The notes under the pieces were generated by a model that did no database searches, was not told the DNA's origin, and saw only the letters and a program-made list of their open reading frames with translations. From Candidatus Latescibacterota bacterium (lineage in GTDB: Bacteria; Latescibacterota; UBA2968; UBA8231): 64,000 bases of DNA. Positions 8,225-54,067 of the stretch are shown here, piece after piece. The stretch lies in contig CBDETY010000003.1 of the NCBI GenBank assembly GCA_965243025.1, forward strand, positions 3,200,001 to 3,264,000, given 5' to 3'. Every line of letters begins with the position of its first letter. Positions within the stretch are counted from its first letter, which is position 1. The translations under genes were made by a program, and so were the position numbers.

Positions 8225-11200
8225 CTACCTCAGCAGGGAGACCTTCCTCCCCTGGCTGAATTCCCCGGCCCGCATCTCGACAATATAGACGCCGCCGGCC
8301 GCCCTGTTTCCCCGGTCGTCGAGGCCGTTCCAGTAGACGGCGTGGGTCCCCGCCTCGAGGCTGGCCGAGACGAGAGTGCGCACCAGGGCTCCGCGCAGGT
8401 CGTAGACCCGCAGCTCGGCGCGCGCCGGCCGGGGCAGGTCGAAGCGCAGGTGGGTACGGCTGTTGAAGGGGTTGGGCCAGCCCGGGTGGAGGGCGAAGCG
8501 CCCGGGAAGCCCGGCGGCGGAGGTTTCCACCGCGGTATCGTGCAGGGCTTCGCTGGTCAGGAAGGGGCGCCATTCGACTTCCCCCTCGAACAGGGCGGCT
8601 ATGGCGGTGCTGTCGGTCGTGCCCCAGTAGTTCCCCCGGGCATTCACCGGCAGTCCGGACTGGTTGACGATGGCGGCGCGGTTGTTGACGAAGGAGTTGC
8701 CGGTTATTTCCCCCGGCACCCGGGAGCCGCTGATCGTTACCGCCGTGAGGTTGTTCTCGAACCGGTTGGCGATCAGCCCCGGCGCCGAATCGAGCGACTC
8801 GACCCCGAAGGAGCCGTTGCGGAAAATCGAGTTGCGCGCCGTCACGCCCTCGACTCCGACCAGCGACATCCCCGAGCTGCTGGCGAAATCGCTCATGTCG
8901 ATCAGCCCGGTGGCGCCGCCGCTCAGCACCAGCCCGGTGCCGACGTTGTCCTCGAACAGGGTCGTCCAGACCTCCATGCGGGAGTCGGCGAAGACGGCGC
9001 CGTGGCCGATGTTGCGGGAGACCGTCACGTCCTCGAACACCATCCGGGCAAGGCCGCTGCCGAGGATCCCGTTCCTGCGATTGCCGCTGATCTCGCAGAA
9101 GTGGAGCTCGACCTCCCCCTCCCACGGGTCGAGCTGCAACCCGTGCAGGGTGCTGCCGGAGACCGTGCATTTCCACAGCTCGATCTTCTGCCCCCGGCCC
9201 CCTGTCGCCACCAGGCCTGAGCGCGGGTCCTCCTCGTCGAGCTGTCCCGACGACTCGATCCTCGTGGAGATCGCCAGCAGACCGCTGTTGCCCAGCGAGA
9301 TCCCCTCCCAGCCGGTGTTCTCGATGACGCTGTCGCGCACCCGCACCAGTCCGGTCCCCCAGGCCCGGAGCGCGTTTCCGGTGATATCCTTCAGGGTCGA
9401 CCCGTCGACCGTCAGCTCGCCGTGCACGGACATGTTGATTCCGTGGACGGTCCGCCGGACGGTCGCGTTCTCCAGGTGGGCCCGCCCCCTGCCGGAGACC
9501 TCCCCGGTCAGGGCGAAGCCGCTCTGACTGATCTCGAGGTCGGAAGCCTCGAGGGTCCCGTCGGCTTTCAGCACCAGTCCGTACCAGAGTGAATCGCTCG
9601 ACGGCGAGTCTACGGTGAGCTCCACCGGGCCGGCCGGAGTTCCCGCAATCTTCAGCCCGCCCTTGACCACGAGCTCGGTAAACCCCGAGCTCTCCCCGCG
9701 CCCGGAGAGATCGCTCGGGGCGAAACGCACGGTGGCGCCGCTGTCTATCACCAGCTCGGAACCCTTCTCGACATGGAGGTCCCAGGGCAGGACGCGGTCC
9801 TGGGACCAGGTGGTCACTCCGGCCGGCAGCCGCTGCCGCAGGAGCCCGTACCGCGAGTTCTCGACCCGCAGCCCGCCGGAGGCCTCGGCCTCTTCAACCC
9901 CCCCGGAGGCGCTCGTCATCAGGAGCAGGCCGAGCCAGTCGCCGGAGCGCGGCCGCTCCTCGGCCGACTCGAGGACCACCGGGTCCCCGGAATCGCCGCG
10001 CACCTCGAGCTCGCCGTAGACGATCATCTCCCCGAAGCTGCGGTCGAAACCGGCGGCGCGGCTGTCGCCGCGGCGGAAGCGCACCCGGGTGCCGGCCTCC
10101 AGTACCAGGCGCACCCCCGGCTCGACGACGACGTCGCCGTCGACCTCGACCTCCCCGGACCAGACGGCGTCGGCCGAGACGTTCCCCTCCACCGGCTGGC
10201 GCACGAGGATGTCGAGGCCCATGCGGCCGCCGCCGAGGTCGCGGATGTTCTCGATGGCGATCCCGAGGGGAACGCCGCGCTCGAAGCGGGCGTGGGCCCG
10301 CAGGCCGGGATTGGTGGTCAGGTCGGCGCGGTCGAAGCGGTCGCCGTCGAAGGGGTCGGTGGCGTCTCCCCGGTTGCCGTTGTGTTCGCTTGCGTAGGTC
10401 TCGTCGCGGGCCCAGAAATCGAGGTTGTCGCCGCCCCTGAGAGGGTCCGGCTGCTCCCCGGGATAGCCGCGGTCGGCGAACAGTCCGTCGGCGCAGACGA
10501 GATCGACCTGCTTGTGGCGCTCCTCGTCGTTGTCCGCCCCCTCGTCGACGTGCCATACCAGCAGCCCGCCGGCGGGGATGTTGCGGTTGTAGAAGCTGCC
10601 GGAGTTCTGGCGGTTCTCGATCAGGAAATACTCCTCCTCGGAAACCGGGATCCGGTACACCGGACCGCCGCGGTCGATCTGCTCCATCTCGAGGCCGCGC
10701 AGCGACCCGGTGACCTCGACGAGGTTCTCGTTCTCCCTGCCGAGCCAGCCCAGCTGCGCCAGCGACCAGGCGGTGAAGGGGTTGGGGCCGTCCTCGACTC
10801 CCCACCCGAGGGTGCCCAGCCCCATCAGCCCCCACTTGCCGATCCCGGCGCCGTCGAGGGCCCAGTCGATCTCCCTGCCGAGAAGCACCGTCGACTGATC
10901 GAACAGGTCGGGAAGCCCGAGCACATGGGCGAACTCGTGGCACATGGTCGCCGAGGTAACGGAGAAGACGTGGCCGCGCTGGGTGGTCCCCCCGAAGCCG
11001 GAGAAACGGCCGCGCACGCGGATGTTTCCCCCGCCGGCGGCCGGGTCGTCGCTGATGAAGTCGGCGTCGAACCCGAGGGACGCGAGCCCGGTGGCGGTGC
11101 GCAGCAGGAAGTTCACCGGCACCGTGAGCAGGTTGATGAAGACGACGTCGACGTAGCCGTCGTCGTCTCCGGAATTCGGCATCCCGTCGGGGCCGTCGTT

Positions 11201-11800
11201 GTCGAAGCGGCCCATGTCGACGTCGGCGTCGGCCTGGGTCAGGATCTCGAGGTTGAAGCGCGGGTAGTCGCCGGAGGTTCCACCCTCTTCGGGCAGGTAG
11301 GCCGCGGCCTCCTCCAGTGAGCTGTAACGCCTGGGGAGGACCTCCCCCCTTACCAGGAGCTGGCCGCGCGACATCTCGTCGTAGAAGTGGGCGAAGCTGC
11401 CCGGAAGGCCGGGGTCGAACAGGTCGTCGGCCCAGGAGGGTTTGCTGTCGGCGCCGTCCGCCTCGCCGCGGAACTTGGCGAAGATCACCAGGGCGTTGAA
11501 GGTCCCCGTGACGGCCCCGCGGCTGTCCTGCGCGGTCCGGGCGCCGGAGGCGCCGGCCTGCTTGGGGGCGCCGCCCCGCGGCGGTTGCACCGGGGGGTCC
11601 GCGGAAAACCCCGAGAGAGATTCCCCCCCCGAATGCCCCTCTCCGGCGCCGCCGCAGGCCACGACCCCCTCGGGGATCAGCTCGACTTCCGACGCGCTGC
11701 CGGGGTTGCCTTCGCCGGAGCCGAGGCAGAGGAGCAGCGAGACCGCCGCGGCTGCCGGGAGGCGGCCACCCGCGGCTACGGGCAAGGCGTCCTGCGGCAT
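8225..11800 (-). CDS. Secreted M6-family metalloprotease with parallel beta-helix repeats and FlgD/T9SS-like C-terminal domain
   Basis: Signal-like N-terminus; CHEFAHVLGLPDLFD, WGLMG and YFLIENRQ motifs; beta-helix repeats; tail ALHPGWPNPFNS...WNGLDDRG...GVY...KVSLLR. Confidence 0.88.
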   Translation of the reverse strand: MPQDALPVAAGGRLPAAAAVSLLLCLGSGEGNPGSASEVELIPEGVVACGGAGEGHSGGESLSGFSADPPVQPPRGGAPKQAGASGARTAQDSRGAVTGTFNALVIFAKFRGEADGADSKPSWADDLFDPGLPGSFAHFYDEMSRGQLLVRGEVLPRRYSSLEEAAAYLPEEGGTSGDYPRFNLEILTQADADVDMGRFDNDGPDGMPNSGDDDGYVDVVFINLLTVPVNFLLRTATGLASLGFDADFISDDPAAGGGNIRVRGRFSGFGGTTQRGHVFSVTSATMCHEFAHVLGLPDLFDQSTVLLGREIDWALDGAGIGKWGLMGLGTLGWGVEDGPNPFTAWSLAQLGWLGRENENLVEVTGSLRGLEMEQIDRGGPVYRIPVSEEEYFLIENRQNSGSFYNRNIPAGGLLVWHVDEGADNDEERHKQVDLVCADGLFADRGYPGEQPDPLRGGDNLDFWARDETYASEHNGNRGDATDPFDGDRFDRADLTTNPGLRAHARFERGVPLGIAIENIRDLGGGRMGLDILVRQPVEGNVSADAVWSGEVEVDGDVVVEPGVRLVLEAGTRVRFRRGDSRAAGFDRSFGEMIVYGELEVRGDSGDPVVLESAEERPRSGDWLGLLLMTSASGGVEEAEASGGLRVENSRYGLLRQRLPAGVTTWSQDRVLPWDLHVEKGSELVIDSGATVRFAPSDLSGRGESSGFTELVVKGGLKIAGTPAGPVELTVDSPSSDSLWYGLVLKADGTLEASDLEISQSGFALTGEVSGRGRAHLENATVRRTVHGINMSVHGELTVDGSTLKDITGNALRAWGTGLVRVRDSVIENTGWEGISLGNSGLLAISTRIESSGQLDEEDPRSGLVATGGRGQKIELWKCTVSGSTLHGLQLDPWEGEVELHFCEISGNRRNGILGSGLARMVFEDVTVSRNIGHGAVFADSRMEVWTTLFEDNVGTGLVLSGGATGLIDMSDFASSSGMSLVGVEGVTARNSIFRNGSFGVESLDSAPGLIANRFENNLTAVTISGSRVPGEITGNSFVNNRAAIVNQSGLPVNARGNYWGTTDSTAIAALFEGEVEWRPFLTSEALHDTAVETSAAGLPGRFALHPGWPNPFNSRTHLRFDLPRPARAELRVYDLRGALVRTLVSASLEAGTHAVYWNGLDDRGNRAAGGVYIVEMRAGEFSQGRKVSLLR

Positions 11801-13191
11801 TCGGCTATGAACTCGGATGCCTCGAAATCGTAGGTCCTGAAGGGGTCGTCGAGGTTGAGGTACATCTCGTCCTCGACGTAGATCGAATCCCAGTCGATGA
11901 CGTAACGGGCCTTGTGGTCGGTGAGCTCACGCATCACCGCCGAGCGCGCCCGCGCCCGGGTATCCTGCGGGGGCGTCACGATGGCCCGGTTCACCATTTC
12001 GTCGGAGACCACCTTCCTGGTAATCCCCTGGTCCCGGAGATCGAAGTACAGCCCCTTGCCGGGGTTGAGGTTGTGATACTCGAGGTCGAGGCTCTGGACC
12101 CAGGTGTCCTGCCAGTCGAGCTGCTCCGACTCCATGAACGACTCGAGCAGCCATTTCTTCGTCACCCAGTCGACCCGGTCGACCAGCGCCATCGGGTCGT
12201 GAACCAGGGCGTCGAGCACGAAGCGCCACTCGTCGAGCACCCAGTCCGCCTCGCTGTCGAGGCCGCGCAGGTAGCGCTCGGCGAGCTCGAGGTACCGGTA
12301 CTGAATCTCGCTTGCGGTCGTGTAGCTGCCGTCCTCGAGCTGGACTTCCCAGCGGTACTCGAGGTCGCGGGAGATCTCCCGGATCGCCTGCACCGGGTCG
12401 AGGAGCTTGATGTCCGGGACGATGCGCTCCTCGAGCAGCTCGAGCATCAGGGCGGTGGTGCCGACCTTCAGCGCGGTCGCGTACTCCGACATGTTCGAGT
12501 CCCCTACCAGGAGGTGCAGGCGGCGGTAGAGTCCCCAGTCCGCCAGCGGCTCGTCGCGGGTGTTGATGATGGCGCGGCTGAACTGGATCCACTGGTAGAT
12601 CTCGGTGACGATGTGGTCGGCGCGCTGGGAGATCTGGTACGGGACCTCGCGGTCCTCGCCGCCGCCTCCGTACTCGAAGATGTCGGTGTGGCAGCCGACC
12701 CGGCCGGCCCCGGCGTAGATCTGGCGGCTGACGAAGAAGGGCAGGATCGCCGGCAGCAGGACCTGGGCGAAGGGAACGTCGCGGCGCACGAGGTAGTTCT
12801 CGTGGCAGCCGAAGGTCGCCCCGGTGTAGTGGTCGATGTTGTTCTTGAAGAACGAGGCGTCCTCGGCAAGGCCGAGCTGCTCGAGGGCCCGCTGCACCAT
12901 CAGCTCGCCGGCGCGGTCCGAGGCGACGAGGTCGAACAGCCCGCGGCATTCCGGGGTCGCGTACTCGACGTGGCCCATGTCGATGTACATCCTGCCGCCG
13001 TTGAACAGGAAGCCGCCGTTGCCTGGAGGCTCGTCGCGGCCCCGGTAGTGTATGTCGACGATGCCGAGGCCCTCGCGGTAGAAGACGTAGTCCTTGGTCT
13101 TCACCGAAATGAAATCCGGACTGAGGAAGGGGTCCGAGTCCGGAGGCATGCAGCCGAATTCGATTTCGAGTCCGTATATGCGGTTGCGCAT
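11776..13191 (-). CDS. pafA: Pup/UBact-protein ligase (PafA family)
   Basis: MRNRIYGLEIEFG (GhExE), FLFNGGRMYIDMGHVEYATPEC, FKNNID, FGCHENYL, IINTRDEPLAD, RRLHLLVGDSNMSE and LDLEYH. Lacks the Dop loop. The ORF-track N-terminal extension overlaps prcA and is discounted. Confidence 0.92.
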   Translation of the reverse strand: MRNRIYGLEIEFGCMPPDSDPFLSPDFISVKTKDYVFYREGLGIVDIHYRGRDEPPGNGGFLFNGGRMYIDMGHVEYATPECRGLFDLVASDRAGELMVQRALEQLGLAEDASFFKNNIDHYTGATFGCHENYLVRRDVPFAQVLLPAILPFFVSRQIYAGAGRVGCHTDIFEYGGGGEDREVPYQISQRADHIVTEIYQWIQFSRAIINTRDEPLADWGLYRRLHLLVGDSNMSEYATALKVGTTALMLELLEERIVPDIKLLDPVQAIREISRDLEYRWEVQLEDGSYTTASEIQYRYLELAERYLRGLDSEADWVLDEWRFVLDALVHDPMALVDRVDWVTKKWLLESFMESEQLDWQDTWVQSLDLEYHNLNPGKGLYFDLRDQGITRKVVSDEMVNRAIVTPPQDTRARARSAVMRELTDHKARYVIDWDSIYVEDEMYLNLDDPFRTYDFEASEFIAECRRTPCP

Positions 13192-13213
13192 CTGGGTCGC
13201 CCCTGGCCGGGGG

Positions 13214-13975
13214 CTACTTCCCGAACCGGCCCAGCGCCTCCTCGAGGTCGGCCGGCGGCAACAGGCGGAACTTCGATTTCGTCGGCAGGGTGCGGTCGAG
13301 GACGGCCGCTTCGATCCGCTGGCCGCCGTCCAGAGCCTGGGAGACGCTTTCGGAGATCTCGCCGGAGGTCGGCTCCCCGGTGCGCCCGGGCTCGCTGTAG
13401 AGCCGCCCCAGCGCCCAGCGCTCGAGGGCGCGCTGCAATGCTTCGTCAAGGCCGGGAGCCTCGGATCCGGCGGCGGCGTGCCGTTCCATTGCCTCCCGGC
13501 TCTCCGGGGTGCCGGCGACCGCGGCGGCCGCGCCCGAGGCGGCGAACGATCCGTCGGCGTCGACGGTGTAGAATGCCTCCCCTCCGGCGCCGGCATCGAG
13601 CTCGGCGACGAGTACGCGGGCGATGAACGGGGAGCGAAAGATCTCGTCGAAGGCGGTCTTCATCAGCGGCCCGATTCCGAAGCTGACCAGCCGCTGCAGG
13701 GAGACGTCCCGGGCCGAGAGGTTGAACGCCTCGACGTGGGCTATGTCGATGACGGCCTTGCGCAGCTTTTCGATGTCGGCAGGGTGGCCGATGGCGGCGA
13801 AGGCGACCTGGTTGTAGATCTCGAACAGCTTGCGCGGCCCCGGCGTCGTGGTCAGCAGCAGGATGCCGTCCTCGTAGACGGAACCGACCACCGGGCTGGC
13901 GGACTTGAGCTGGTCCTCGAGGTACTCGCGGCGATTGCGGATCGCCTCGACCCAGCGGTAGGGTTCGTCGAGCAT
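13214..13975 (-). CDS. prcA: 20S proteasome alpha subunit
   Basis: EPYRWVEAIRNRREY...SPVV...RKLFEIYNQVAFAAIGHPADIEKLR and IEAAVLDR; lies between prcB and pafA. Confidence 0.9.
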   Translation of the reverse strand: MLDEPYRWVEAIRNRREYLEDQLKSASPVVGSVYEDGILLLTTTPGPRKLFEIYNQVAFAAIGHPADIEKLRKAVIDIAHVEAFNLSARDVSLQRLVSFGIGPLMKTAFDEIFRSPFIARVLVAELDAGAGGEAFYTVDADGSFAASGAAAAVAGTPESREAMERHAAAGSEAPGLDEALQRALERWALGRLYSEPGRTGEPTSGEISESVSQALDGGQRIEAAVLDRTLPTKSKFRLLPPADLEEALGRFGK

Positions 13976-13978
13976 GGG

Positions 13979-14842
13979 TCAGTGGAGCGTCTCGTAGAGC
14001 GCCTGCAGCTCCGGTTCGGCGACCGGTTCGACCCCCGCGGCGGTGACCCGCATGACCTGGGGGAAGATGCGCGCCACCGGTTTGTAGCCGCCGGTGGCGG
14101 TGTCGTACTCGGCGGCGGTTTCCAGCATCTTCAGGATGAGGGACAGGGACTCCCCGGCCTCCATCCCCGCCAGCGGCCTTTCCCCCCAGCGGTTCAGGTA
14201 GTAGAGGGCGCCGCGGATGACCTGGGATCCCGACCCGGTTGTGCAGAAGTCGACCGACTCGAAGGTGGCTCCGAGAACGTCGTAGAAGAAGATCTTGCCG
14301 CCGCCGGGACCGCTGCCCTCGTAGGTCGCGTAGATCGGGACCACGGCGCCGATCCCCTGCAGGGCCATCGGCAGGTTCTCGCGCATCAGCCGCGACAGGG
14401 TTCGCAGCCTGCCGTCGAGGCTCATCTCCTGCAACTGCGAGCGCCGGTAGTGCTGGAAGGAAATCTCGAGCATGCGCGCGATCTCGTAGGCGTTCGCCGG
14501 CGAGCCCGACAGGGCCAGCACCGATCCGTCGTCGACCCGCAGGACCTTGTCGGCGCGGTCGTGGATGACGGTGTTGCCCATGGTCGCGCGGCGGTCCCCG
14601 GCGACGAGGACGCCGTCGCGGCAGCGCAGGGCGAGAATGGTGGTGCCTTCGGTCGACTCGACCGCGGCTTCGGCGCCGGTAGTTTCCGGCGCCCCGGGCA
14701 GCTGCCCGTTCTGTTTCAGGAGATTGAGGAAATCGGTGTGTTCCAAGGCGGATGGCCCTGTGCGGCGGCGCCCGGCCGGCGCTGCCGCCCCGGTTCGGGC
14801 CGCGCCCTGGTGGCCTGTCCCGGGAGGGGACGCCGGGCTCAC
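13979..14842 (-). CDS. prcB: 20S proteasome beta subunit with propeptide
   Basis: Autocleavage site TEG|TTILAL after a ~66-aa propeptide; AGDRRATMG, TGSGS and DTATGG. The GTG start overlaps the ubact stop. Confidence 0.93.
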   Translation of the reverse strand: MSPASPPGTGHQGAARTGAAAPAGRRRTGPSALEHTDFLNLLKQNGQLPGAPETTGAEAAVESTEGTTILALRCRDGVLVAGDRRATMGNTVIHDRADKVLRVDDGSVLALSGSPANAYEIARMLEISFQHYRRSQLQEMSLDGRLRTLSRLMRENLPMALQGIGAVVPIYATYEGSGPGGGKIFFYDVLGATFESVDFCTTGSGSQVIRGALYYLNRWGERPLAGMEAGESLSLILKMLETAAEYDTATGGYKPVARIFPQVMRVTAAGVEPVAEPELQALYETLH

Positions 14843-15030
14843 TCCCCGGTGCGCTGACGGTAGCGGCGCGCCTGGTTGGGGTCGACCTTGCGCATGCGGC
14901 GCAGCAGGTCGTCGGTGTTCGGCCGTTCCACCTTGGGGCGGCGGGGTCCTGGATCGTCGCCGTCGCCGCCGCCGCCGTCCATCGGCTTGGCCGGCCGCGG
15001 GGCCCGGTCGCGCATTTCAACTGACCGCAT
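14839..15030 (-). CDS. ubact: Ubiquitin-like modifier UBact (Pup analogue)
   Basis: 63-aa low-complexity protein ending LLRRMRKVDPNQARRYRQRTGE, which matches the UBact R[T/S]G[E/Q] terminus. GAGGAG RBS; sits at the pup position between dop and prcB. Confidence 0.9.
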   Translation of the reverse strand: MRSVEMRDRAPRPAKPMDGGGGDGDDPGPRRPKVERPNTDDLLRRMRKVDPNQARRYRQRTGE

Positions 15031-16561
15031 GGTGCATCTCCTCGAGTTGGGTGATCAAACCCGACACGCTGTCGGCCTCTTCCAAGACCGCCATAAAGGT
15101 AGCCGCCGTTTCCCGCTCGACACAACCCTTCAGGTCGACGGTCTCGACCCTGCCGCCGACGGTGAACTCGATGCTGTCCCAGTTCAGGGAGCGCACCTCG
15201 GAACCGAACTTCTGCAGGCAGCGGCCGCGAAAGGCGGCGCGCGTCGCCTCGGGGGCCTCGACCATGGCGCGGGCAACCTCGCCGTCGCCGGCCAACTGTT
15301 CGCCGGCGCCGTCTGCGGCGAGCAGGGTGAACAGCCCTTCCTCCGGATCGATGTTGTGGTACTCGAGGTCCTGGCTCTGCAGCCAGGCGAGGTCGTCGGG
15401 GTCGTTCCAGTCCAGCCCTTCGGCCTCGGCGAAGGCCCCGAGCATCCACTCCTTCGTCACCCAGTCGCACCTGCCCCTGAGCCGCGCGGGATCCCCGGCG
15501 AGCGCCTCGAGCACCTCCTCCCAGGCGCCGAGCACCCAGTCGGTTTCCGCGTCTCTCCCCGCCGCTCCGGCCGCGGCGCGCTCGAGGAAGGCGCGCTGGA
15601 TCTCGAGCGCGGTCGTGTGCCTGCCCCCCTCCAGCTCGACTTCCCAGACGCGCCGCGGATCCCGCGAGACCGACTTGACCGCTCCCACCGGGTCGGCGAG
15701 GACGAGCCGGGGCAGCTGCCCGCGCTCGAGCAGCTCGAGAACGAGCAGGGCGGTTCCCGTCTTCAGGGCGGTGGCGAACTCCGACATGTTGGCGTCGCCG
15801 TTTATCAGGTGCAGGCGGCGGTAGAGGGCGGCGTCGGCGTGCGGCTCGTCGCGGGTGTTGACCAGCGGCCGCCGCGTCATCGTGTCGATGCTGGCGATGC
15901 ACTCGAAGAAATCGGAGCGCTGCGCCAGCTGGAACACCGCCTGGCCGGCGCCGCGTTCCGCCTCGACCCCGACCTTGCCGGCCCCGGCGAAGATCTGGCG
16001 GGTGACCAGGAACGGCAGCAGGCCGTCGATCACCTGCTGGAAGGGAACGTCGCGGCGCACGAGATAGTTCTCGTGGCAGCCGTAGCTGTGGCCCTCGAAG
16101 TCGGTGTTGTTCTTGTAGAGGCGGACGGTGCCGCCGTCGTCCCGGGTCTCGGTGCGGCGGCGCGCGCACTGCAGCAGGATGCGCTCACCGGCGCGGTCGA
16201 AGGCGACCAGGTCGCGCAGCGAGAAGACCTCGGGGGTCGAGTACTCCGGGTGGGTGTGGTCGTTGTACAGGCGCGCCCCGTTGGTGAGGATCAGGTCGCT
16301 CTTGAGCTCCTTCAGCGGTATGCGCCGGTCGCGGTCGCGCTGCAGGTGGTCGGCTTCGTCCTTGTCGTTGAGCAGCTCCTCGACCTCGAAGCCGCGCGCG
16401 TCGAGGCGCGGGTTCTCCAGCCCGTAGTCCCAGCGCGCGACGAAGTCCTCGCGCAGGTAGCAGCGGATCAGCTCCATCGACTCGACGACGACATCGAGCT
16501 TCTCCACGCCGTCGACCTGGATCCCGTACTCGGTTTCGAGACCGAACAGCCGGTCGCCCAA
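15017..16561 (-). CDS. dop: Deamidase/depupylase (Dop, PafA2 family)
   Basis: TTG start; GLETEYG, Dop-loop WDYGLENPRLDARGF, LTNGARLYNDHTHPEYSTPE, YKNNTD, SYGCHENYL and NTRDEPHAD. Confidence 0.92.
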   Translation of the reverse strand: MGDRLFGLETEYGIQVDGVEKLDVVVESMELIRCYLREDFVARWDYGLENPRLDARGFEVEELLNDKDEADHLQRDRDRRIPLKELKSDLILTNGARLYNDHTHPEYSTPEVFSLRDLVAFDRAGERILLQCARRRTETRDDGGTVRLYKNNTDFEGHSYGCHENYLVRRDVPFQQVIDGLLPFLVTRQIFAGAGKVGVEAERGAGQAVFQLAQRSDFFECIASIDTMTRRPLVNTRDEPHADAALYRRLHLINGDANMSEFATALKTGTALLVLELLERGQLPRLVLADPVGAVKSVSRDPRRVWEVELEGGRHTTALEIQRAFLERAAAGAAGRDAETDWVLGAWEEVLEALAGDPARLRGRCDWVTKEWMLGAFAEAEGLDWNDPDDLAWLQSQDLEYHNIDPEEGLFTLLAADGAGEQLAGDGEVARAMVEAPEATRAAFRGRCLQKFGSEVRSLNWDSIEFTVGGRVETVDLKGCVERETAATFMAVLEEADSVSGLITQLEEMHHAVS

Positions 16562-16562
16562 G

Positions 16563-18344
16563 TCAGATGACCTTGCCGGCGGCCTCGGTTTCCCGGTCGC
16601 GGTCGGCGGCGGAGCTCACCGGCGCCACGCGGACGACGTTCTCCGGATCGTAGTCGAGCAGCTTGAGCCAGTCCTCGACGCTGTCGGTGGGGGGGAAGAC
16701 CTCGTTCTCGCGGTACTCGGCGTTGATGGCGTTGGCGAGGTCCTCGAAGCGGATGCCGGCGTCGCCGTCGCTCTCGGCGATGGCGCGCTTGATAGCCGCT
16801 TCCTTGGCGCGCTGGACGATGCTGTCTATGAGGGCGCCGCTGGCGAGATCGCCGAAATGAAGGTTCTCCTGGCGGCCGCTGCGCAGGGCGACCTCGAGGA
16901 ACCGGGTCTCTTCGCTGGGCGCGAACAGCGCCTTCACCGCCTCTTCGATCAGGGCGGTGCGGGCTTCCCCGGCGCCGCCGTAGCGCTCCACCTCGCCCGG
17001 GTCTATCGGCAGGTCCTCGGTCAGGTAGATCCCGAAGATTTCCCGGGAGGCCTCCAACCCCGGGCGCAGGACCTTGATCTTGCGGTCGATCCGCCCCGGC
17101 CGGAGGATCGCCGGGTCGATGAGGTCGTGCCTGTTGGAGGCGAGAATGATGACGACGTCCTGCAGCGACTCGATGCCGTCCATCTCGGTGCAGAACATCG
17201 GCACCACCGTGTTGGCGATGTGGTGGCTGCGCATCGACCGGCGCGTTCCGAGGATCGACTCCGCCTCGTCGATGAAGACGAAGGGCAGGTACCCCTCCTT
17301 CCGCTTCTGCCGCGCCTGCGCGAAGATCTCGCGGACCATGCGCTCGGTCTCGCCGAGCCACATGTTGAGGATCTCCGGGCCCTTGACGTGCATGAAGTAC
17401 TCCCTGACGTCGAGGCCCTCCTCGCTGCGCAGGTGCTGCACGAGGTTGTAGGCCGTCGCCTTGCCGATGAGGGTCTTGCCGCAGCCCGGCGGGCCGTAGA
17501 GCAGGAACCCCTTGGGGGTCGAGTAGCGGAACCTTTCGAACAGCTCCGGGTGCCTGGCCGGCAGCTCGATGGTGTCGCGGATTCCCCGGATCGCCTCCTC
17601 CTGGCCGCCGATCCGGTCCCACGTCATTTCCGGGATCTCCTCGAGGAAGTACTCCCTGCTCTCGCGCGACTGCAGCAGCTCGAGGGCGACCCTCATCGAG
17701 GCATCGGTGCGGACCTCGTCCCCCGCCTTGAGCTCGAGGCCGGCCAGCTCCTCGGAGCGTTCGAGAACGAAGTCGCTGGTGGCGTGCTCGTTGCCGATGC
17801 GCAGGCGGCCGTCGGGGAGGACGTCGGTGATTCGCACCACCGGCCCGGCGGGATTGCGCGGCAGCACCCCGACGACCGCGTACGCCTCGTTGATCAGCAC
17901 GCGCCCGCCGACCTCGAGCTCGCCCGGGTCGATGCGCGGGTCGACGTTGGCGAAGTACTCGGAGCCGCCGACGAGGATGGTGGCGATCCCGTCCCGGGGA
18001 GCGTCGATGCAGATGCCTACGCGGTTGGAAGGGGAGGTCACCTTCTCCAGGGCGGCCTCGAGCTCGACCAGGGCCCGCCGCGCCTCCTGGAAGGTGATCT
18101 CCCGCTCCATCAGCTGCCGCCGCAGCTGGTAGAGCAGCGGCCGCGACGGGTCGCGGTCCGGCAGCAGAATCAGCACCTGGTCGACGAGCCGGAGCGGCTC
18201 TTCGTCGAAGTCGCGCCGCCCCTCCTCTTCCGGGTCGCCCCGCAGGTAGGGGGACTCGAGCTCCTCGAACTCGTCGCCCTGGCGTCCCCCGCCGGCGGGG
18301 TCGTCAGGGTCGCGGTAATCCGGGTAGTCGCGGTCGTTTTTCAT
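16563..18344 (-). CDS. arc: Proteasome-associated AAA ATPase (ARC/Mpa)
   Basis: N-terminal coiled coil and OB region; Walker A GPPGCGKT, KGPEILNMWLGETER, Walker B FIDEAES, DPAILRPGRIDRKIKV and SGALIDSIVQRAK. Confidence 0.93.
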   Translation of the reverse strand: MKNDRDYPDYRDPDDPAGGGRQGDEFEELESPYLRGDPEEEGRRDFDEEPLRLVDQVLILLPDRDPSRPLLYQLRRQLMEREITFQEARRALVELEAALEKVTSPSNRVGICIDAPRDGIATILVGGSEYFANVDPRIDPGELEVGGRVLINEAYAVVGVLPRNPAGPVVRITDVLPDGRLRIGNEHATSDFVLERSEELAGLELKAGDEVRTDASMRVALELLQSRESREYFLEEIPEMTWDRIGGQEEAIRGIRDTIELPARHPELFERFRYSTPKGFLLYGPPGCGKTLIGKATAYNLVQHLRSEEGLDVREYFMHVKGPEILNMWLGETERMVREIFAQARQKRKEGYLPFVFIDEAESILGTRRSMRSHHIANTVVPMFCTEMDGIESLQDVVIILASNRHDLIDPAILRPGRIDRKIKVLRPGLEASREIFGIYLTEDLPIDPGEVERYGGAGEARTALIEEAVKALFAPSEETRFLEVALRSGRQENLHFGDLASGALIDSIVQRAKEAAIKRAIAESDGDAGIRFEDLANAINAEYRENEVFPPTDSVEDWLKLLDYDPENVVRVAPVSSAADRDRETEAAGKVI

Positions 18345-18403
18345 GCGTCAGTCCTGGCCCCGGGTGGGAGGCAGCGCCGCAGGCCCATGCCGGGTCCGCC
18401 GCA

Positions 18404-19147
18404 TCAGTGGATGACGTCGCCGAGCCTGCCGTAGCGGGTGCGCGTCGGAAGCGTTGGAAGGTTCCAGATGAAGCTGGCTGTATCCATCAGCAGCTGCGGC
18501 AGCCCCCGCAGGATGCCGGGGCCTGCTTTCAGGGTAGCCGACCAGTAGATGATCATCGCCTTTCCCTTGACGTGGCTGCGCGGAACCGGGCCGAAGACGC
18601 GGCTGTCGCTGCTGTTGTCGCGGTTGTCCCCCATCATGAAGAACTGGTCCTCCGGCACCCGGTAGGGGCCGAAGTTGTCCCGCATGCTGTAGGAGGCCTG
18701 GTGGATGCGGGGGTCGGTGTGTTTCGACAGCGGCGGGTTCGGGAATTCCTCGCCGTCGACGTAGAGGACCTTGTCGACCACCTGGACCTGCTGGCCGCCG
18801 ACGGCGACGCAGCGCTTGATCAGGTCGCGCCCCGGCTCGGTTTTCGAGCGGAAGATCACGATGTCCCCCGGCTGCGGGTCGCTCAGGGCCGGCAGCCTGA
18901 AAAGGGGGGCGGCCACGAAGGGAATCTCGACGGGGGCTCCGTACACGAACTTGTTCGCCAGCAGGTAATCCCCGACGAAAAGGGTGTCCTCCATCGATCC
19001 GGAGGGAATGTAGAAGGCCTGGACCACGGTGCTGCGGATGAGCAGGGCCAGGCATATGGCGACGACGATCGACGACAGGTACTCCCGCATCCCCGACCGC
19101 TGCGTCCGTTCCGGCGGGTCTGGCTCAGGCTGATTTTCAGGAGGCAT
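18404..19147 (-). CDS. lepB: Signal peptidase I
   Basis: TM helix followed by AFYIPSGSMEDTL (catalytic Ser), LIKRCV (Lys) and MGDNRDNSSDSR. Confidence 0.93.
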   Translation of the reverse strand: MPPENQPEPDPPERTQRSGMREYLSSIVVAICLALLIRSTVVQAFYIPSGSMEDTLFVGDYLLANKFVYGAPVEIPFVAAPLFRLPALSDPQPGDIVIFRSKTEPGRDLIKRCVAVGGQQVQVVDKVLYVDGEEFPNPPLSKHTDPRIHQASYSMRDNFGPYRVPEDQFFMMGDNRDNSSDSRVFGPVPRSHVKGKAMIIYWSATLKAGPGILRGLPQLLMDTASFIWNLPTLPTRTRYGRLGDVIH

Positions 19148-19187
19148 CGATCCGGACCTTCGAATTCCGGTGCAAGTCAGTCGGTAC

Positions 19188-19216
19188 AGTATACAGAAGG
19201 GGAAATGGCCTGTCAC
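19188..19216 (-). promoter_or_regulatory. Near-consensus sigma70 promoter upstream of lepB-arc-dop-ubact-prcBA-pafA
   Basis: Minus strand GTGACA (19216-19211)-N17-TATACT (19193-19188), 40 nt before the lepB ATG. Confidence 0.65.
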
Positions 19217-19344
19217 CAACGGATCGGCATCCGGATGGCCGGCGGCCCAGGGCGGGGGGTGGTCGATCCCGGCGGATGGGCGTTCTGCCGTTCCCCCCGG
19301 GTACCACCGGGACGGAAACGGACGCGGGTGGACCGGCCGGCCCG

Positions 19345-20346
19345 TCAGCCGCGGCTCGCGACCTCGGCCACCGCCCCTTCCCGCCAGGAGCGGATGGCGG
19401 CCTCGATGATTTCCTGGGCGGCGAGGCCGTCGTCTCCCGATGCCTCTATGCAGTCGGGGGCCGCCCCCTCGCTCAGCTGCTCGATCCAGCGGTCGATGCG
19501 GGTGTGGAAGGTGTCGCCGAATCCCGTCATCCCCCCCATGATGCTGTTGCGCACCACGGTCAGCTCCTCTCCCCGGCGCGGGTAGAAGGTCAGCTCCTCG
19601 AAGCAGTTGTCGAGGACGAACCGCCCTTCCGTTCCCATGACCTCGCAGCGCTCGAGGTTGTGGCGCGGCGCCGCGTCGTAGCTGCCGGTCAGGTGGCCGA
19701 CGACGCCGTTGGCGAACTCCATGTTGATCTGCGCGTTCGACCAGCAGATCCGCCCCGGGGCGCGGTTGAGGAAGGCGTGCACCCGCTTCACCTCGCCGCC
19801 GAAGTAGCGCATGATGTCGATAGAGTGCGGGTGCAGCGCCCGCAGGTGGAACCACTCGGAGGTTTCGTTGGGGTTGTCGATCCACATCGTCATGTTGAGC
19901 AGCAGCAGGTCGCCGAGCCGGCCCTCGTCGATCCAGGCCCGGGCGCGTTCCGCAGGCGGAACGAAGCGGTGGTTGAGGTTGATGCCGAAGCAGACCCCCT
20001 GCTCCCTGGCCCTGGCGACCATCTCCCTGGCCTGACCGATGTCGTTGGAGATCGGCTTCTCGCACAACACGTGCCTGCCGGCGTCCAGCGCCCTCATCAC
20101 CGGCTCGTAGTGGTCGCCGCCGTTCTCGAAGCCCCCCGTGGCGACGCTGACGGCGTCGAGCTCCTCGGACTCGAGCAGCTCTTCCACCGAGTAGTGCGGG
20201 CGGGCCCCGAAGCGGGCGGCCGCGGCGTCGGCGCGCTCCTTGACCATGTCGCAGACGGCGACGAGGTCGGCCTTGTCCGACCTGGCATAGACTTCGGCGT
20301 GGTTGGCCCCTATCCCCCTCATCCCGATCACGGCAACCTTCAGCAT
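19345..20346 (-). CDS. Gfo/Idh/MocA family oxidoreductase
   Basis: VAVIGMRGIG Rossmann motif, HVLCEKP and INLNHRF. Confidence 0.9.
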   Translation of the reverse strand: MLKVAVIGMRGIGANHAEVYARSDKADLVAVCDMVKERADAAAARFGARPHYSVEELLESEELDAVSVATGGFENGGDHYEPVMRALDAGRHVLCEKPISNDIGQAREMVARAREQGVCFGINLNHRFVPPAERARAWIDEGRLGDLLLLNMTMWIDNPNETSEWFHLRALHPHSIDIMRYFGGEVKRVHAFLNRAPGRICWSNAQINMEFANGVVGHLTGSYDAAPRHNLERCEVMGTEGRFVLDNCFEELTFYPRRGEELTVVRNSIMGGMTGFGDTFHTRIDRWIEQLSEGAAPDCIEASGDDGLAAQEIIEAAIRSWREGAVAEVASRG

Positions 20347-51970: not shown

Positions 51971-54067
51971 TCATCTGAGGAAGAGAAACCTCAACGAATG
52001 CACTCCGCCGGAGTGTTGAAGGCGGGTCAGATACACCCCCGAAGTCAAAGCCGCTCCCTCCTGGTCGCGGGCGTCCCAATAGACCTCGTAAGAACCTGCC
52101 GCATGGACTTGATCCACCAGGATGCGCACCGGCTGGCCAAGGACATTGTAGATCTCCAGCCGTACGGGGCCGGGATCGGCCAGGCGGTAGGGTATCCGGG
52201 TGGTCGCATTGAAAGGATTGGGATAGTTGGGTCCCAGTCGGCTGGTGGCGGGGACCCCGGTCGAGGCCCCAGGGGTCGCGGCCAAGGTTGGGACGGGTTG
52301 GGGTAAGTAAAGTGCAATTTCTCCCGCAGGCTCGGGTATTGAAAAAGATAAAATTTCGGAATCATCCACATCCAAACCGGCTTGTTTGATTTCACTGAAG
52401 CCGTAGTAGGATCCCCATTCCGGAAACAATTCAACCGCCGTCCAGTGCAACCTTCTTCTGACTGCGTCCAACGCAATGCTTACGGGATATGTTTTTGGAG
52501 GTCCATGGGCAGGTCGTTCCTGGACCTCGGCCTCGGGAGGGAAAGTTTCAACATTGGAACCATCCAGGTCCGCCAGCTGAATCCTTCCGTGGTCCGTCCA
52601 GTAAATCTTGCCTTCCACTCTATCAACGGCGATCCTCCTTGCATCGGATGACCATGACCTGACCAGGACTTCCGCATTGGAACCGTCCAAATCCGCCCGA
52701 TGAATCCCAGTCCGGTCCGTCCAGTACATTTTCCCCATGGCTTCATCAATTTCAATCCCAAATGGATGGGATAATCCTTCAATCAGGTATTCCTCAGCTT
52801 CCCCATCCAGGTCCGCACGTCTGATCCTGTCGTATTCCGCCCAGTACATTTTGCTTCCAGTTTCATCCAGGTCGATCTCCTTGGGATCCAGCAGCCTCGA
52901 AATCAGAACTTCCGCATTGGAGCCATCCAGATCCGCCCGTTGAATCGCCTGCCTGCCTCCATCCGTCCAGTACACTTTCTTCCCGGCCCCGTCCACGGCA
53001 ATTCCCCTCGGAAAAAAGGGGAAGGAGATTCGGATGAGCTCTTCGATATCTTTGGTATTGAAACCGTTAAAATCAGTGCCATCATAGTCCGCTCGTCGAA
53101 TCTTGTAGCCGTTGGTCCAATACAACTTGCCCGCTGCCGAGTCGAAGGCGTAACCCCATGGAAGCAGGAAATCGACATTTTCGGGGTTGGAACCATCCAG
53201 ATCGGCGCGCTTTTGGGATTCCAATGGGGGACCATGCAGCCATTGATATTCCCTCCAGTAAATTTGGCCTCCCGCGGTATCGACGATAAGGGAAGAAATT
53301 GCGACCCTGCCACCGGGCTTATAAATCCCCACGACATTAGATCCGTCCAGATCGGCCCTGTAGATCGCAGCACTATCCCCGTCAAGTTCCACCCAGTACA
53401 AGTTGCCTTCTCTCACATCCAGGGAGAAGTCCGTAACCAGGCGGCCCCTTTCTTCCCCAAAGATCGCCACCAGGTTTTCGACGTTTGAGCCGTCCATATT
53501 CGCCCGCCGGATCCCCGAATCACCATTATCCCCGGAATCGAGATTGAGCCAGTGCCAGTACATCTTTGCATTTGCAACATCCAAAGCAAGGGTTTCGACA
53601 GGGCCGTATTGCTCGGTTAGTGAAATCAAGGTTTCAGCATCGGAGCCGTCCAGATTTGCTCGTTGGATCGTTGCAGCACTTGACCAGTACATCTTTCCCC
53701 TGTCCGCATCGAGGGAAATTTGCCCTGCATCGAGGGAAGTTTGCCCTGCACCAACACCCTCTACAAGATCTTCGACATTGGAGCCGTCCAGATCCGCCCG
53801 GCGAATCGTGCCGCGGTCTTCAATCCAGTACACCTTGCCGCCTGCCAGGTCCAGGGCGAGATCCAATGCCTTGGGGCCTTTTCTTACGATGATCTCGGAA
53901 TTTGAACCATCCAGATCGGCCCGCTTGATAAAATGAGGGTAAGTCATGGTGGTCCAGTAAAGTTTGTCGGTATCGGTCGAAGGCTGACCGTAGGCGGTCC
54001 CCTAAAGGCCGAGAATCGTTGCGAATATCGACGCCATTATCTTTCGGCTGGCAACATGCAGTTCCAT
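51971..54067 (-). pseudogene. LDL-receptor class B (YWTD) repeat protein with FlgD/T9SS-like tail, interrupted by an in-frame TAG in the signal peptide
   Basis: GAGG RBS and ATG 54067 give MELHVASRKIMASIFATILGL*GTAYGQ...KLYWTT, continuing into the ORF-track ORF; the TAG is at 54004-54002. There are 12 YW-type repeats with RADLDGS and the tail NYPNPFNA...SGVY. Confidence 0.78.

What the first reader, a model, noticed from the sequence alone, without database searches (positions are those of the whole stretch)
11776..18344. Complete non-actinobacterial UBact ubiquitin-like conjugation and 20S proteasome operon
Seen: arc-dop-small ORF-prcB-prcA-pafA, tightly coupled (1-nt gap, 14-nt overlap, 4-nt overlap, 3-nt gap, 22-nt gap). 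The small ORF ends YRQRTGE rather than Pup's GG[E/Q]. Known: this terminus defines UBact, the Pup analogue of Gram-negative lineages, which is far less characterised than the Pup system. Inference: a terminal Glu needs no deamidation, so Dop would act mainly as a deconjugase. The host looks like an uncultured FCB-type lineage.
Basis: partly seen in the sequence, partly recalled or inferred. Interest (0 to 1): 0.85.

Follow-up and report, generated by a model that had tools for sequence, protein, structure and literature searches.

The report
Ordinary UBact-proteasome operon, Latescibacterota-like genome
This is an intact six-gene operon for a bacterial protein-tagging and proteasome degradation system (UBact), a family already catalogued and nearly universal in this organism's own class, so it is a good but ordinary example.

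Summary
On the minus strand lie arc (16563-18344), a Dop-like gene (15017-16561), a 63-codon ORF ending YRQRTGE (14839-15030), prcB, prcA (13214-13975) and a PafA-like gene (11776-13191). The small ORF passes the curated UBact models (PF20513, E 6.6e-21; NF033388, 82.9 bits against a cut-off of 35) and not the Pup model. Catalytic residues are intact. The two Pup-ligase paralogues separate cleanly into a Dop-type with a Dop loop and a PafA-type without one. A complex model places the UBact C-terminus in the PafA-like active site (0.80 against best control 0.01).

One correction: prcB most likely starts at a TTG at 14746. That leaves a 92-nt spacer rather than a 4-nt overlap.

The system is not rare. 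At least 434 species genomes encode UBact. All 52 loci that hold the six genes have this order. In the host's phylum 128 of 168 genomes have it. The nearest relatives are labelled Candidatus Latescibacterota, in the FCB group.

It is a new member of a known kind, and interest is low to moderate. The most interesting clade-wide detail is that these ARCs end in V-I and lack the penultimate tyrosine of Mpa.

The parts
16563..18344 (-). ARC/Mpa-type proteasomal AAA+ ATPase (593 aa). It has an N-terminal coiled-coil region, two OB domains, an AAA module (Walker A GPPGCGKT at 284, Walker B IDEAE at 358, pore loop W-L-G within MWLGE at 328) and a C-terminal tail ending ...GKVI.
   Evidence: Pfam AAA, Prot_ATP_ID_OB_N and Prot_ATP_ID_OB_C. 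TIGR03689 pup_AAA scores 455.4 bits, below its cut-off of 504.75. Best solved relative is mycobacterial Mpa, 343 bits. Motif positions; C-terminus.
15017..16561 (-). Dop-type Pup-ligase-family enzyme (514 aa): predicted de-conjugase, and deamidase in relatives whose UBact ends in Q. It carries a Dop-loop insertion.
   Evidence: PF03136, E 4.6e-156. TIGR03688 Dop scores 439.5 bits against TIGR03686 PafA 351.5. Acidothermus Dop 4b0r scores 412 bits against PafA 4b0t 246. Signature residues are D101-H102, S108-T109-P110 and F218.
14839..15030 (-). UBact, a 63-aa modifier ending YRQRTGE. A GAGGAG Shine-Dalgarno-like motif lies 7-8 nt before the ATG. The start overlaps the Dop-like stop by 14 nt.
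   Evidence: PF20513, E 6.6e-21. NF033388 scores 82.9 bits against a cut-off of 35. 197 homologues were found; the 120 listed all carry PF20513. Positions 28-62 are nearly invariant in the 31-sequence alignment. Upstream sequence.
14747..14838 (-). Probable 92-nt non-coding spacer between UBact and prcB. It lies inside the maximal prcB ORF.
   Evidence: Frame-breaking 1-nt deletion in L003 and in contigs of X16, X6 and X9. Relatives' PrcB start aligns to the TTG at 14746. The fold is not better than shuffles, z = -1.28.
13979..14746 (-). 20S proteasome beta subunit PrcB. The likely TTG start at 14746 gives 255 aa; the maximal ORF reaches the GTG at 14842. A propeptide is followed by the catalytic Thr1 (...STEG|TTILAL), with Asp17 and Lys33 present.
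   Evidence: PF00227, E 7.4e-26. TIGR03690 scores 158.7 bits, below its cut-off of 191.9. Thr1, Thr2, Asp17 and Lys33 are invariant in 73 of 73 aligned PrcB sequences.
13214..13975 (-). 20S proteasome alpha subunit PrcA (253 aa), the most divergent component.
   Evidence: PF00227, E 2.5e-7, 31 bits against a cut-off of 22.4. TIGR03691 scores 62.5 bits, below its cut-off of 139.05. Identity to Poribacteria-labelled loci is 38-41%.
11776..13191 (-). PafA-type Pup-ligase-family enzyme (471 aa): the predicted UBact-protein ligase. It has no Dop loop.
   Evidence: PF03136, E 5.3e-137. TIGR03686 PafA scores 359.5 bits against Dop 347.5. PafA-type residues sit at Hecht et al. positions 7 (F61), 13 (A78), 25 (H193), 33 (S205) and 46 (D433). 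The complex model with UBact scores 0.80 against a best control of 0.01.

Best explanation
The region is a complete and apparently functional UBact-proteasome system. It is the counterpart of the actinobacterial Pup-proteasome system in a Latescibacterota-like, probably sponge-associated bacterium.

The inferred mechanism is as follows. The PafA-type enzyme uses ATP to activate the side-chain carboxylate of UBact's C-terminal Glu63 and joins it to lysine side chains of target proteins. Because the tag already ends in Glu, no deamidation step is needed. The Dop-type paralogue removes the tag. The ARC hexamer recognises tagged proteins, unfolds them and feeds them into the PrcA/PrcB 20S core, whose beta subunit matures by cutting off its propeptide before Thr1.

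Shown here: family membership of all six genes, intact catalytic residues, conserved gene order, two distinct paralogue types, and a complex model that supports UBact-PafA binding. Inferred by homology: conjugation chemistry, reversal by Dop, and degradation.
For: - All six products match the expected families, and UBact passes both curated cut-offs.
- The genome holds exactly two Pup-ligase genes and two proteasome-family genes, all in this operon, and one strong ARC.
- The beta subunit's Thr1, Asp17 and Lys33 are invariant in 73 of 73 aligned sequences. ARC has Walker A, Walker B and an aromatic-hydrophobic-Gly pore loop.
- The paralogues split into 62 Dop-like and 60 PafA-like sequences with support 1.0.
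- The upstream paralogue has the Dop loop and the Dop signatures D-H and S-T-P. The downstream one lacks the loop and has PafA-type F, A, H, S and D at positions that Hecht et al. list as distinguishing the two enzymes.
- The complex model of PafA-like plus UBact supports binding but does not show it. The score was 0.80 and the best of 3 controls 0.01; that mark was reached by 58 of 80 solved complexes and 2 of 110 mismatched pairs. The runs agree in at least 61% of contacts, and the partner's pLDDT is at least 52. UBact residues 37-63 touch PafA-like residues 11, 13-15 and 71-74 around the catalytic Asp71, and helices 348-390. A PafA-Pup complex has been solved (4bjr), so part of the pass may reflect that likeness.
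- The six-gene order is identical in 52 of 52 complete loci. UBact is present in 128 of 168 genomes of the phylum.
- Contigs of one metatranscriptomic library (X16), from a relative about 94% identical, cover pieces of all six genes. One 1154-nt contig spans the Dop 3' end, UBact and the PrcB 5' end.
Against: - No biochemical proof of UBact conjugation was found. The word search for UBact listed 21 papers, none with the word in its title or abstract. The three I opened either only cite or name it, or showed no occurrence in the part of the text that is held. The original description is not held.
- All five enzyme and structural proteins score below the actinobacterial equivalog cut-offs.
- By raw score against solved structures, the PafA-like protein is slightly closer to Dop (275 bits) than to PafA (249 bits).
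- In the alpha-loop, the PafA-like clade has I/V-Q where actinobacterial PafA and Dop have two threonines whose mutation slowed PafA (PMC7947786 section 8). Loop alignment is uncertain.
- ARC lacks the penultimate tyrosine that is the main docking determinant of Mpa.
- The RNA evidence comes from assembled contigs of one library. No silent stretch was laid as a control, so carried-over DNA is not excluded.
Confidence: 0.85

Rival explanations
1. It is a true Pup system, an actinobacterial-type locus recently transferred, and not a separate UBact type.
For: The gene order is the same as in actinobacterial loci (recalled). The enzymes are clear homologues of Dop, PafA and Mpa. An early survey counted such non-actinobacterial tags as Pup orthologues with a G[EQ] end (PMC2588565 passages).
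Against: None of 31 UBact family members matches the Pup model PF05639 at E up to 10. The Pup model finds nothing at the operon in the host genome; its one weak hit (E 0.32) is elsewhere. A UBact profile matches no solved chain at E up to 10. The terminus is TGE, not GGE. All actinobacterial equivalog cut-offs are missed. The operon is present in 125 of 131 other genomes of families f1-f4 of the host's class, which argues for long residence.
Confidence: 0.05
2. UBact tagging here is mainly regulatory, or serves something other than 20S degradation. ARC may not dock on the 20S core in the Mpa manner.
For: The ARC tail ends V-I, and none of 61 complete ARC homologues has a penultimate tyrosine. 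That residue is described as the main docking determinant for Mpa (PMC8755798 passages). Tag systems without linked proteasome genes are reported in some lineages (PMC2588565 passage).
Against: The six genes are tightly linked and co-conserved in 52 of 52 complete loci. The aliphatic C-terminus is itself conserved (49 of 61 end in VI), which suggests a kept function. The 20S active site is intact. No HslV-like protease was detected in the 96%-complete genome, so the 20S core is the only member of its family.
Confidence: 0.08
3. The small ORF is not a conjugated tag but a leftover or a small regulator of the neighbouring enzymes.
For: No direct evidence for conjugation exists in the literature I could search.
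Against: Sixteen positions across the C-terminal half are invariant in the 31 aligned sequences, which come from several phylum labels. The terminal residue is always E or Q (73 of 73). The modelled C-terminus reaches the catalytic Asp region of the PafA-like enzyme.
Confidence: 0.02

Closest known systems
UBact conjugation/proteasome loci of Gram-negative bacteria (Lehmann, Udasin, Livneh, Ciechanover 2017, BBRC 483:946; I saw only the citation in a reference list, and the paper itself is not held), as captured by Pfam PF20513 and NCBIfam NF033388
   Same: The tag passes both models. It has the same YRQRTG[EQ] terminus as 72 of 73 complete relatives. It has the same arc-dop-UBact-prcB-prcA-pafA order as all 52 complete loci.
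   Different: Nothing of substance differs. The host lineage (Latescibacterota-labelled relatives) is, as far as I recall, not among the phyla named in the 2017 paper. Public annotation nevertheless already names UBact in that phylum. This copy ends in E, as 48 of 73 do.
Pup-proteasome system of Actinobacteria (Pup, PafA, Dop, Mpa/ARC, PrcBA)
   Same: The enzymes are homologous: Dop 412 bits, PafA 249 bits and Mpa 343 bits to solved structures. The Dop loop is present in one paralogue only. The catalytic Asp and GhExE motifs are kept. The beta subunit is a Thr1 protease with a propeptide. The tag ends in G-[EQ].
   Different: The tag has no detectable sequence similarity to Pup and ends TGE, not GGE. 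All actinobacterial equivalog cut-offs are missed. The residues after the catalytic Asp of the ligase are D-M-G (60 of 60), against D-V-G-S in PafA. The alpha-loop threonines are replaced. ARC ends in V-I instead of GQYL.
Archaeal PAN-20S and eukaryotic 19S-20S docking by the HbYX motif
   Same: A AAA+ unfoldase with OB domains sits next to genes of a 20S core, with a flexible C-terminal tail.
   Different: There is no penultimate tyrosine. The tail ends in two aliphatic residues.

Membership tests
UBact (PF20513 / NF033388) | Match to the curated family models above their cut-offs | tested here: met
   PF20513 scores 74.3 bits against a cut-off of 27.8. NF033388 scores 82.9 bits against a cut-off of 35.
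UBact (PF20513 / NF033388) | Small protein with a conserved C-terminus ending R-T-G-[E/Q] | tested here: met
   The protein is 63 aa and ends YRQRTGE. Of 73 complete relatives, 47 end YRQRTGE, 25 YRQRTGQ and 1 YRQRSGE.
UBact (PF20513 / NF033388) | Encoded between a Dop-like gene and prcB, in a locus that also holds arc, prcA and a PafA-like gene | tested here: met
   The same order is seen in 52 of 52 complete loci.
UBact (PF20513 / NF033388) | Covalent attachment through the terminal Glu to substrate lysines | not testable with these tools
   Only a complex model bears on this (0.80 against best control 0.01). It supports binding and shows no chemistry.
Pup (PF05639) | Match to the Pup model and a GG[E/Q] terminus | tested here: not met
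   0 of 31 UBact members match PF05639 at E up to 10. There is no hit at the operon in the own genome. The terminus is TGE.
PafA, Pup-protein ligase (TIGR03686) | Equivalog score cut-off | tested here: not met
   359.5 bits against a cut-off of 551.3. The Dop model scores 347.5 on the same protein.
PafA, Pup-protein ligase (TIGR03686) | No Dop loop, and PafA-specific residues at the discriminating positions of Hecht et al. 2020 (table 1) | tested here: inconclusive
   There is no Dop loop. PafA-type residues are F at position 7 (60 of 60), A at 13 (50 of 60), H at 25 (53 of 60), S at 33 (53 of 60) and D at 46 (57 of 60). Position 15 is the Dop-type P, the alpha-loop is otherwise different, and the two threonines are replaced.
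Dop, depupylase/deamidase (TIGR03688) | Equivalog score cut-off | tested here: not met
   439.5 bits against a cut-off of 492.3.
Dop, depupylase/deamidase (TIGR03688) | Dop-loop insertion, and Dop-type residues next to the catalytic Asp and in the S-T-P motif | tested here: met
   The loop aligns with that of Acidothermus Dop. D-H is present in 62 of 62, S at position 13 in 54 of 62, T in 62 of 62, P in 50 of 62 and F at position 25 in 62 of 62.
Bacterial 20S proteasome (TIGR03690 beta, TIGR03691 alpha) | Equivalog cut-offs | tested here: not met
   Beta scores 158.7 against a cut-off of 191.9. Alpha scores 62.5 against 139.05. Both pass Pfam PF00227.
Bacterial 20S proteasome (TIGR03690 beta, TIGR03691 alpha) | Beta subunit with a propeptide and the catalytic Thr1, Asp17 and Lys33 | tested here: met
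   These residues are invariant in 73 of 73 aligned PrcB sequences, the window's included.
Mpa/ARC proteasomal ATPase (TIGR03689) | Domain architecture (coiled coil, double OB, AAA) and pore loop | tested here: met
   Pfam domains. Aligns to Mpa over residues 80-587. Walker A, Walker B and the W-L-G pore loop are present. The equivalog cut-off is missed, 455.4 against 504.75.
Mpa/ARC proteasomal ATPase (TIGR03689) | C-terminal docking motif with a penultimate tyrosine (GQYL) | tested here: not met
   The window's ARC ends GKVI. 0 of 61 complete homologues have Tyr at the penultimate place, and 49 of 61 end in VI. The motif definition comes from PMC8755798 passages.

The most novel reading that the evidence does not exclude
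The UBact clade, this operon included, may be a co-evolved variant of the bacterial tag-proteasome machine that uses different recognition codes at two interfaces. First, the tag has no detectable similarity to Pup, yet it is nearly invariant across phyla and is modelled into a homologous ligase. Second, the ARC unfoldase may dock on the 20S core through a conserved aliphatic V-I terminus instead of the penultimate-tyrosine (HbYX/GQYL) motif that is regarded as general for proteasomal ATPases. This would be a property of the clade, not of this window alone.
Probability: 0.35. Interest if true: 0.5.

Novelty: new member of a known kind. Interest (0 to 1): 0.25.

Why it matters
UBact systems are widespread. 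The tag was found in at least 434 species genomes. Yet the library I could search holds no experimental work on them. A complete operon from a nearly closed genome, with an E-terminated tag that needs no activation step, would be a convenient source of genes for a first reconstitution.

Such work could settle three questions:
- whether the PafA-type enzyme really ligates UBact;
- whether UBact is a very diverged Pup or an independent invention;
- how an ARC without the penultimate tyrosine engages the 20S core.

The instance itself teaches nothing new. In its class the operon is the rule, present in 125 of 131 other genomes of families f1-f4.

Tried and rejected
- **Pup membership.** The small ORF does not belong to the Pup family.
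- **Spacer RNA.** I looked for a structured RNA in the 92-nt UBact-prcB spacer. The fold gave -64.4 kcal/mol against shuffles at -59.7 ± 3.7 (z = -1.28), and 22 of 200 shuffles folded as well, so it is not significant.
- **Rfam.** The whole window gave 0 matches at gathering score.
- **Promoters and terminators, 11000-19500.** One promoter-like site was found, on the minus strand at 19216-19188, upstream of lepB. One terminator-like site was found on the wrong strand. Nothing lies inside the operon, which is no evidence either way in this organism.
- **Rooted tree with actinobacterial Dop and PafA.** This was not possible. The unrooted split of the two paralogues is all I can show.
- **Original UBact paper.** It is not held, so its list of phyla and its motif definition are recalled or taken from the family models.
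- **Paper supplements.** They are closed. The supplementary alignments of PMC7947786 and PMC2588565 could refine the residue mapping and show whether Latescibacteria-like tags were already listed.
- **Read laying.** All four runs are contigs, so depth, transcript ends and strand cannot be read. Parts without a listed piece mean nothing. No silent stretch could be laid as a control for DNA in the RNA library, because the cap is 1 call. The many 'joints' have short sides (20-36 letters) at 90% likeness. I take them as cross-matches between the two paralogous Pup-ligase genes or from other organisms, not as rearrangements.
- **Habitat.** Only X16, X1, X6 and X9 were laid. The labels of the other listed runs are not used as evidence.


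Full report
**What is there.** Six co-directional ORFs lie on the minus strand of the window between 11776 and 18344:
- a 593-aa AAA+ ATPase (16563-18344);
- a 514-aa Pup-ligase-family protein (15017-16561);
- a 63-aa ORF ending YRQRTGE (14839-15030);
- two proteasome-family proteins (maximal ORF 13979-14842, and 13214-13975);
- a second Pup-ligase-family protein (11776-13191, taking the ATG that gives MRNRIYGLEIEFG).

G+C is 0.67-0.71 across the region, like its surroundings.

**Family assignments.** Pfam gives these matches:
- ATPase: AAA, Prot_ATP_ID_OB_N and Prot_ATP_ID_OB_C.
- Both large enzymes: Pup_ligase (E 4.6e-156 and 5.3e-137).
- Small ORF: UBact (PF20513, E 6.6e-21).
- The two subunits: Proteasome.

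NCBIfam names the small ORF by the equivalog NF033388 (82.9 bits, cut-off 35). The other five proteins hit the actinobacterial equivalogs pup_AAA, Dop, PafA, 20S beta and 20S alpha, but all fall below their cut-offs. This is what one expects of homologues outside Actinobacteria.

The small ORF is not picked up by the Pup model. None of 31 UBact family members matches PF05639 at E up to 10. A UBact profile finds no solved chain. In the host genome the Pup model gives only one weak hit, elsewhere (E 0.32).

**Which paralogue does what.** The upstream enzyme scores higher with the Dop model (439.5 against 351.5 bits) and with Acidothermus Dop (412 bits against 246 for PafA). It also carries an insertion that aligns with the Dop loop.

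The downstream enzyme is ambiguous by score: PafA model 359.5 against Dop 347.5, and solved Dop 275 against solved PafA 249 bits. I therefore mapped the discriminating positions listed in table 1 of Hecht et al. 2020 (PMC7947786; I read sections 6 and 8 and passages). The mapping used a joint alignment of 62 Dop-like and 60 PafA-like sequences from the window and the fetched loci.
- **Downstream clade.** It lacks the Dop loop. It has the PafA-type residue at position 7 (F, 60 of 60), 13 (A, 50 of 60), 25 (H, 53 of 60), 33 (S, 53 of 60) and 46 (D, 57 of 60). A hydrophobic-Gly pair (M-G, 60 of 60) follows the catalytic Asp, as in PafA.
- **Upstream clade.** It has the Dop-type D-H (62 of 62), S-T-P and F at position 25 (62 of 62).
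- **Differences from the actinobacterial enzymes.** The downstream clade keeps Pro at position 15. It also has I/V-Q where both actinobacterial enzymes have two threonines. The upstream clade has T-M there.

An approximate maximum-likelihood tree separates the two clades with support 1.0 and a long branch. It is unrooted and holds no actinobacterial sequences.

**Integrity of the other parts.** PrcB has the cleavage site ...STEG|TT. Thr1, Thr2, Asp17 and Lys33 are invariant in 73 of 73 aligned sequences. ARC has Walker A, Walker B and a W-L-G pore loop and aligns with mycobacterial Mpa over residues 80-587. The genome (6.8 Mb, 3 contigs, 96% complete) holds only these two Pup-ligase genes and only these two proteasome-family genes, with no HslV-like third member detected. 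It has one strong ARC.

**Binding model.** I folded the PafA-like enzyme with UBact, each with its own alignment (A2 of 37 rows, A1 of 31 rows).
- The model supports binding; it does not show it. The score was 0.80 in all three runs, and the best of 3 controls was 0.01.
- That mark was reached by 58 of 80 solved complexes and 2 of 110 mismatched pairs. These counts hold only roughly, because my own alignments were used.
- The runs agree in at least 61% of contacts, and the partner's pLDDT is at least 52.
- The confident interface uses UBact residues 37-63. On the enzyme it uses residues 11, 13-15, 71-74 (around the catalytic Asp71) and 120-130, plus helices 348-390.
- A PafA-Pup complex has been solved (4bjr, seen), so part of the pass may reflect that likeness. 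UBact itself has no detectable similarity to Pup.

**A correction to the anatomy.** In relatives PrcB begins M-E-S-x-D-F-L, which aligns with codon 33 of the window's maximal ORF, a TTG at 14746. The closest relative (L003) has one base fewer just upstream of that TTG. Contigs of three runs show a 1-nt deletion at about the same place (table 4). The frame is thus not kept upstream. PrcB most likely starts at 14746, and a 92-nt spacer (14747-14838) separates it from UBact. The spacer does not fold better than shuffles (z = -1.28). UBact's own ATG is preceded by GAGGAG.

**How common it is.**
- The small ORF has 197 homologues in the protein collection. The 120 listed all carry PF20513, and several are already named 'ubiquitin-like protein UBact' in Latescibacterota and Gemmatimonadota records.
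- Of the 80 best loci, 52 hold all six genes, and all 52 have the window's order. The other 28 are mostly cut by contig ends or lack one or more matches.
- Their labels include Candidatus Latescibacterota, Gemmatimonadota, Candidatus Poribacteria, Verrucomicrobiota, Planctomycetota and Armatimonadota.
- In the host's phylum, 128 of 168 genomes have a UBact match. By family the counts are f1 69 of 75, f2 3 of 3, f3 22 of 22, f4 31 of 31 and f9 2 of 2. None was found in the nine other families, 34 genomes in all. Some genomes without a match are incomplete.
- The C-terminal half of the tag is nearly invariant across all of these.
- The last residue is E in 48 and Q in 25 of 73 complete ORFs.

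**Host.** The nearest locus (L003) is labelled Candidatus Latescibacterota and is 94% (ARC), 92% (Dop-like), 95% (UBact) and 97% (PafA-like) identical. The runs that hold the stretch and that I laid (X6, X9, X16) are labelled sponge metagenome.

**Expression.** One metatranscriptomic library (X16) has contigs, about 94% identical to the window, over pieces of all six genes. One 1154-nt contig (14185-15302) spans the whole UBact ORF. Others bridge the pafA-prcA, prcA-prcB and dop-arc junctions (table 8). This is compatible with one transcript but does not prove it. The records are contigs, the strand is unknown, and DNA in the library was not controlled for.

**Comparison with what is known.** The system works like the actinobacterial Pup-proteasome pathway:
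- PafA ligates the tag's terminal Glu to lysines, and Dop removes it and deamidates Q-ending tags (PMC8223512 and PMC7947786 passages).
- Mpa threads the tag and docks on the 20S core by a C-terminal GQYL motif with a penultimate tyrosine (PMC8755798 passages).

Tags outside Actinobacteria were noted in 2008 (PMC2588565 passages) and named UBact in 2017 (I saw the citation only). This operon is a member of that known UBact kind.

The clade differs from the Pup system in the tag sequence, in several residues around the ligase active site, and in the ARC terminus. ARC ends in VI in 49 of 61 complete homologues, and none of the 61 has a penultimate Tyr. I found no paper that treats this. The only searches bearing on it were made, so I do not claim it is unpublished.

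**Verdict.** Novelty is low: a new member of a known, widespread and automatically annotated family. The finding's value is as a clean template for first biochemistry on UBact. The only mildly surprising points are properties of the whole clade.

Noticed in passing
window 16563-16620 (3' end of arc); loci L003-L082: ARC homologues in UBact loci end in aliphatic residues: 49 of 61 end in VI, and the others in II, VV, IV, AI, VA, TV or SV. None has the penultimate tyrosine of the Mpa GQYL docking motif.
   Followed up: partly
window 14747-14838: This is a probable 92-nt non-coding spacer between UBact and prcB. The maximal prcB ORF overlaps UBact by 4 nt, but relatives start at the codon aligned with the TTG at 14746 and carry a frame-breaking 1-nt deletion upstream of it.
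   Followed up: yes
window 12571-12600 (PafA-like residues about 198-207) and 15872-15901 (Dop-like residues about 221-230): In the alpha-loop, the PafA-like clade has I/V-Q and the Dop-like clade T-M where actinobacterial PafA and Dop both have two conserved threonines. The alignment of this loop is uncertain.
   Followed up: partly
window about 18404-19100, minus strand: A signal peptidase I gene (Peptidase_S26, E 2.4e-48) lies 59 nt upstream of arc on the same strand. The only promoter-like match in the scanned region (19216-19188) lies upstream of it. It might be co-transcribed with the operon.
   Followed up: no
window 8225-11800, minus strand: A 1191-aa protein with a right-handed beta-helix, a C-terminal FlgD Ig-like domain and an HExxH-type motif (HEFAH). 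Its open frame starts 25 nt inside the 3' end of the PafA-like gene. It looks like a secreted protease or adhesin.
   Followed up: no
window 51971-53947, minus strand: The gene lies in the window's lowest-G+C stretch (0.55 against about 0.68). It encodes LDL-receptor class B (YWTD) repeats plus a FlgD Ig-like C-terminal domain. This is a eukaryote-like repeat protein of the sort reported from sponge symbionts (recalled).
   Followed up: partly
whole genome G000: The 96%-complete genome has only the two proteasome-family genes of this operon. No HslV-like gene was detected, as in Actinobacteria that carry a 20S core (that comparison is recalled).
   Followed up: partly
window 11776-18344 in public runs: Near-identical or closely related copies of the operon stand in contigs of runs labelled sponge metagenome. 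These are the laid runs X6, X9 and the RNA library X16.
   Followed up: partly
window 54100-55080, minus strand: A second signal peptidase I homologue, fused to an N-terminal RDD-family membrane domain.
   Followed up: no
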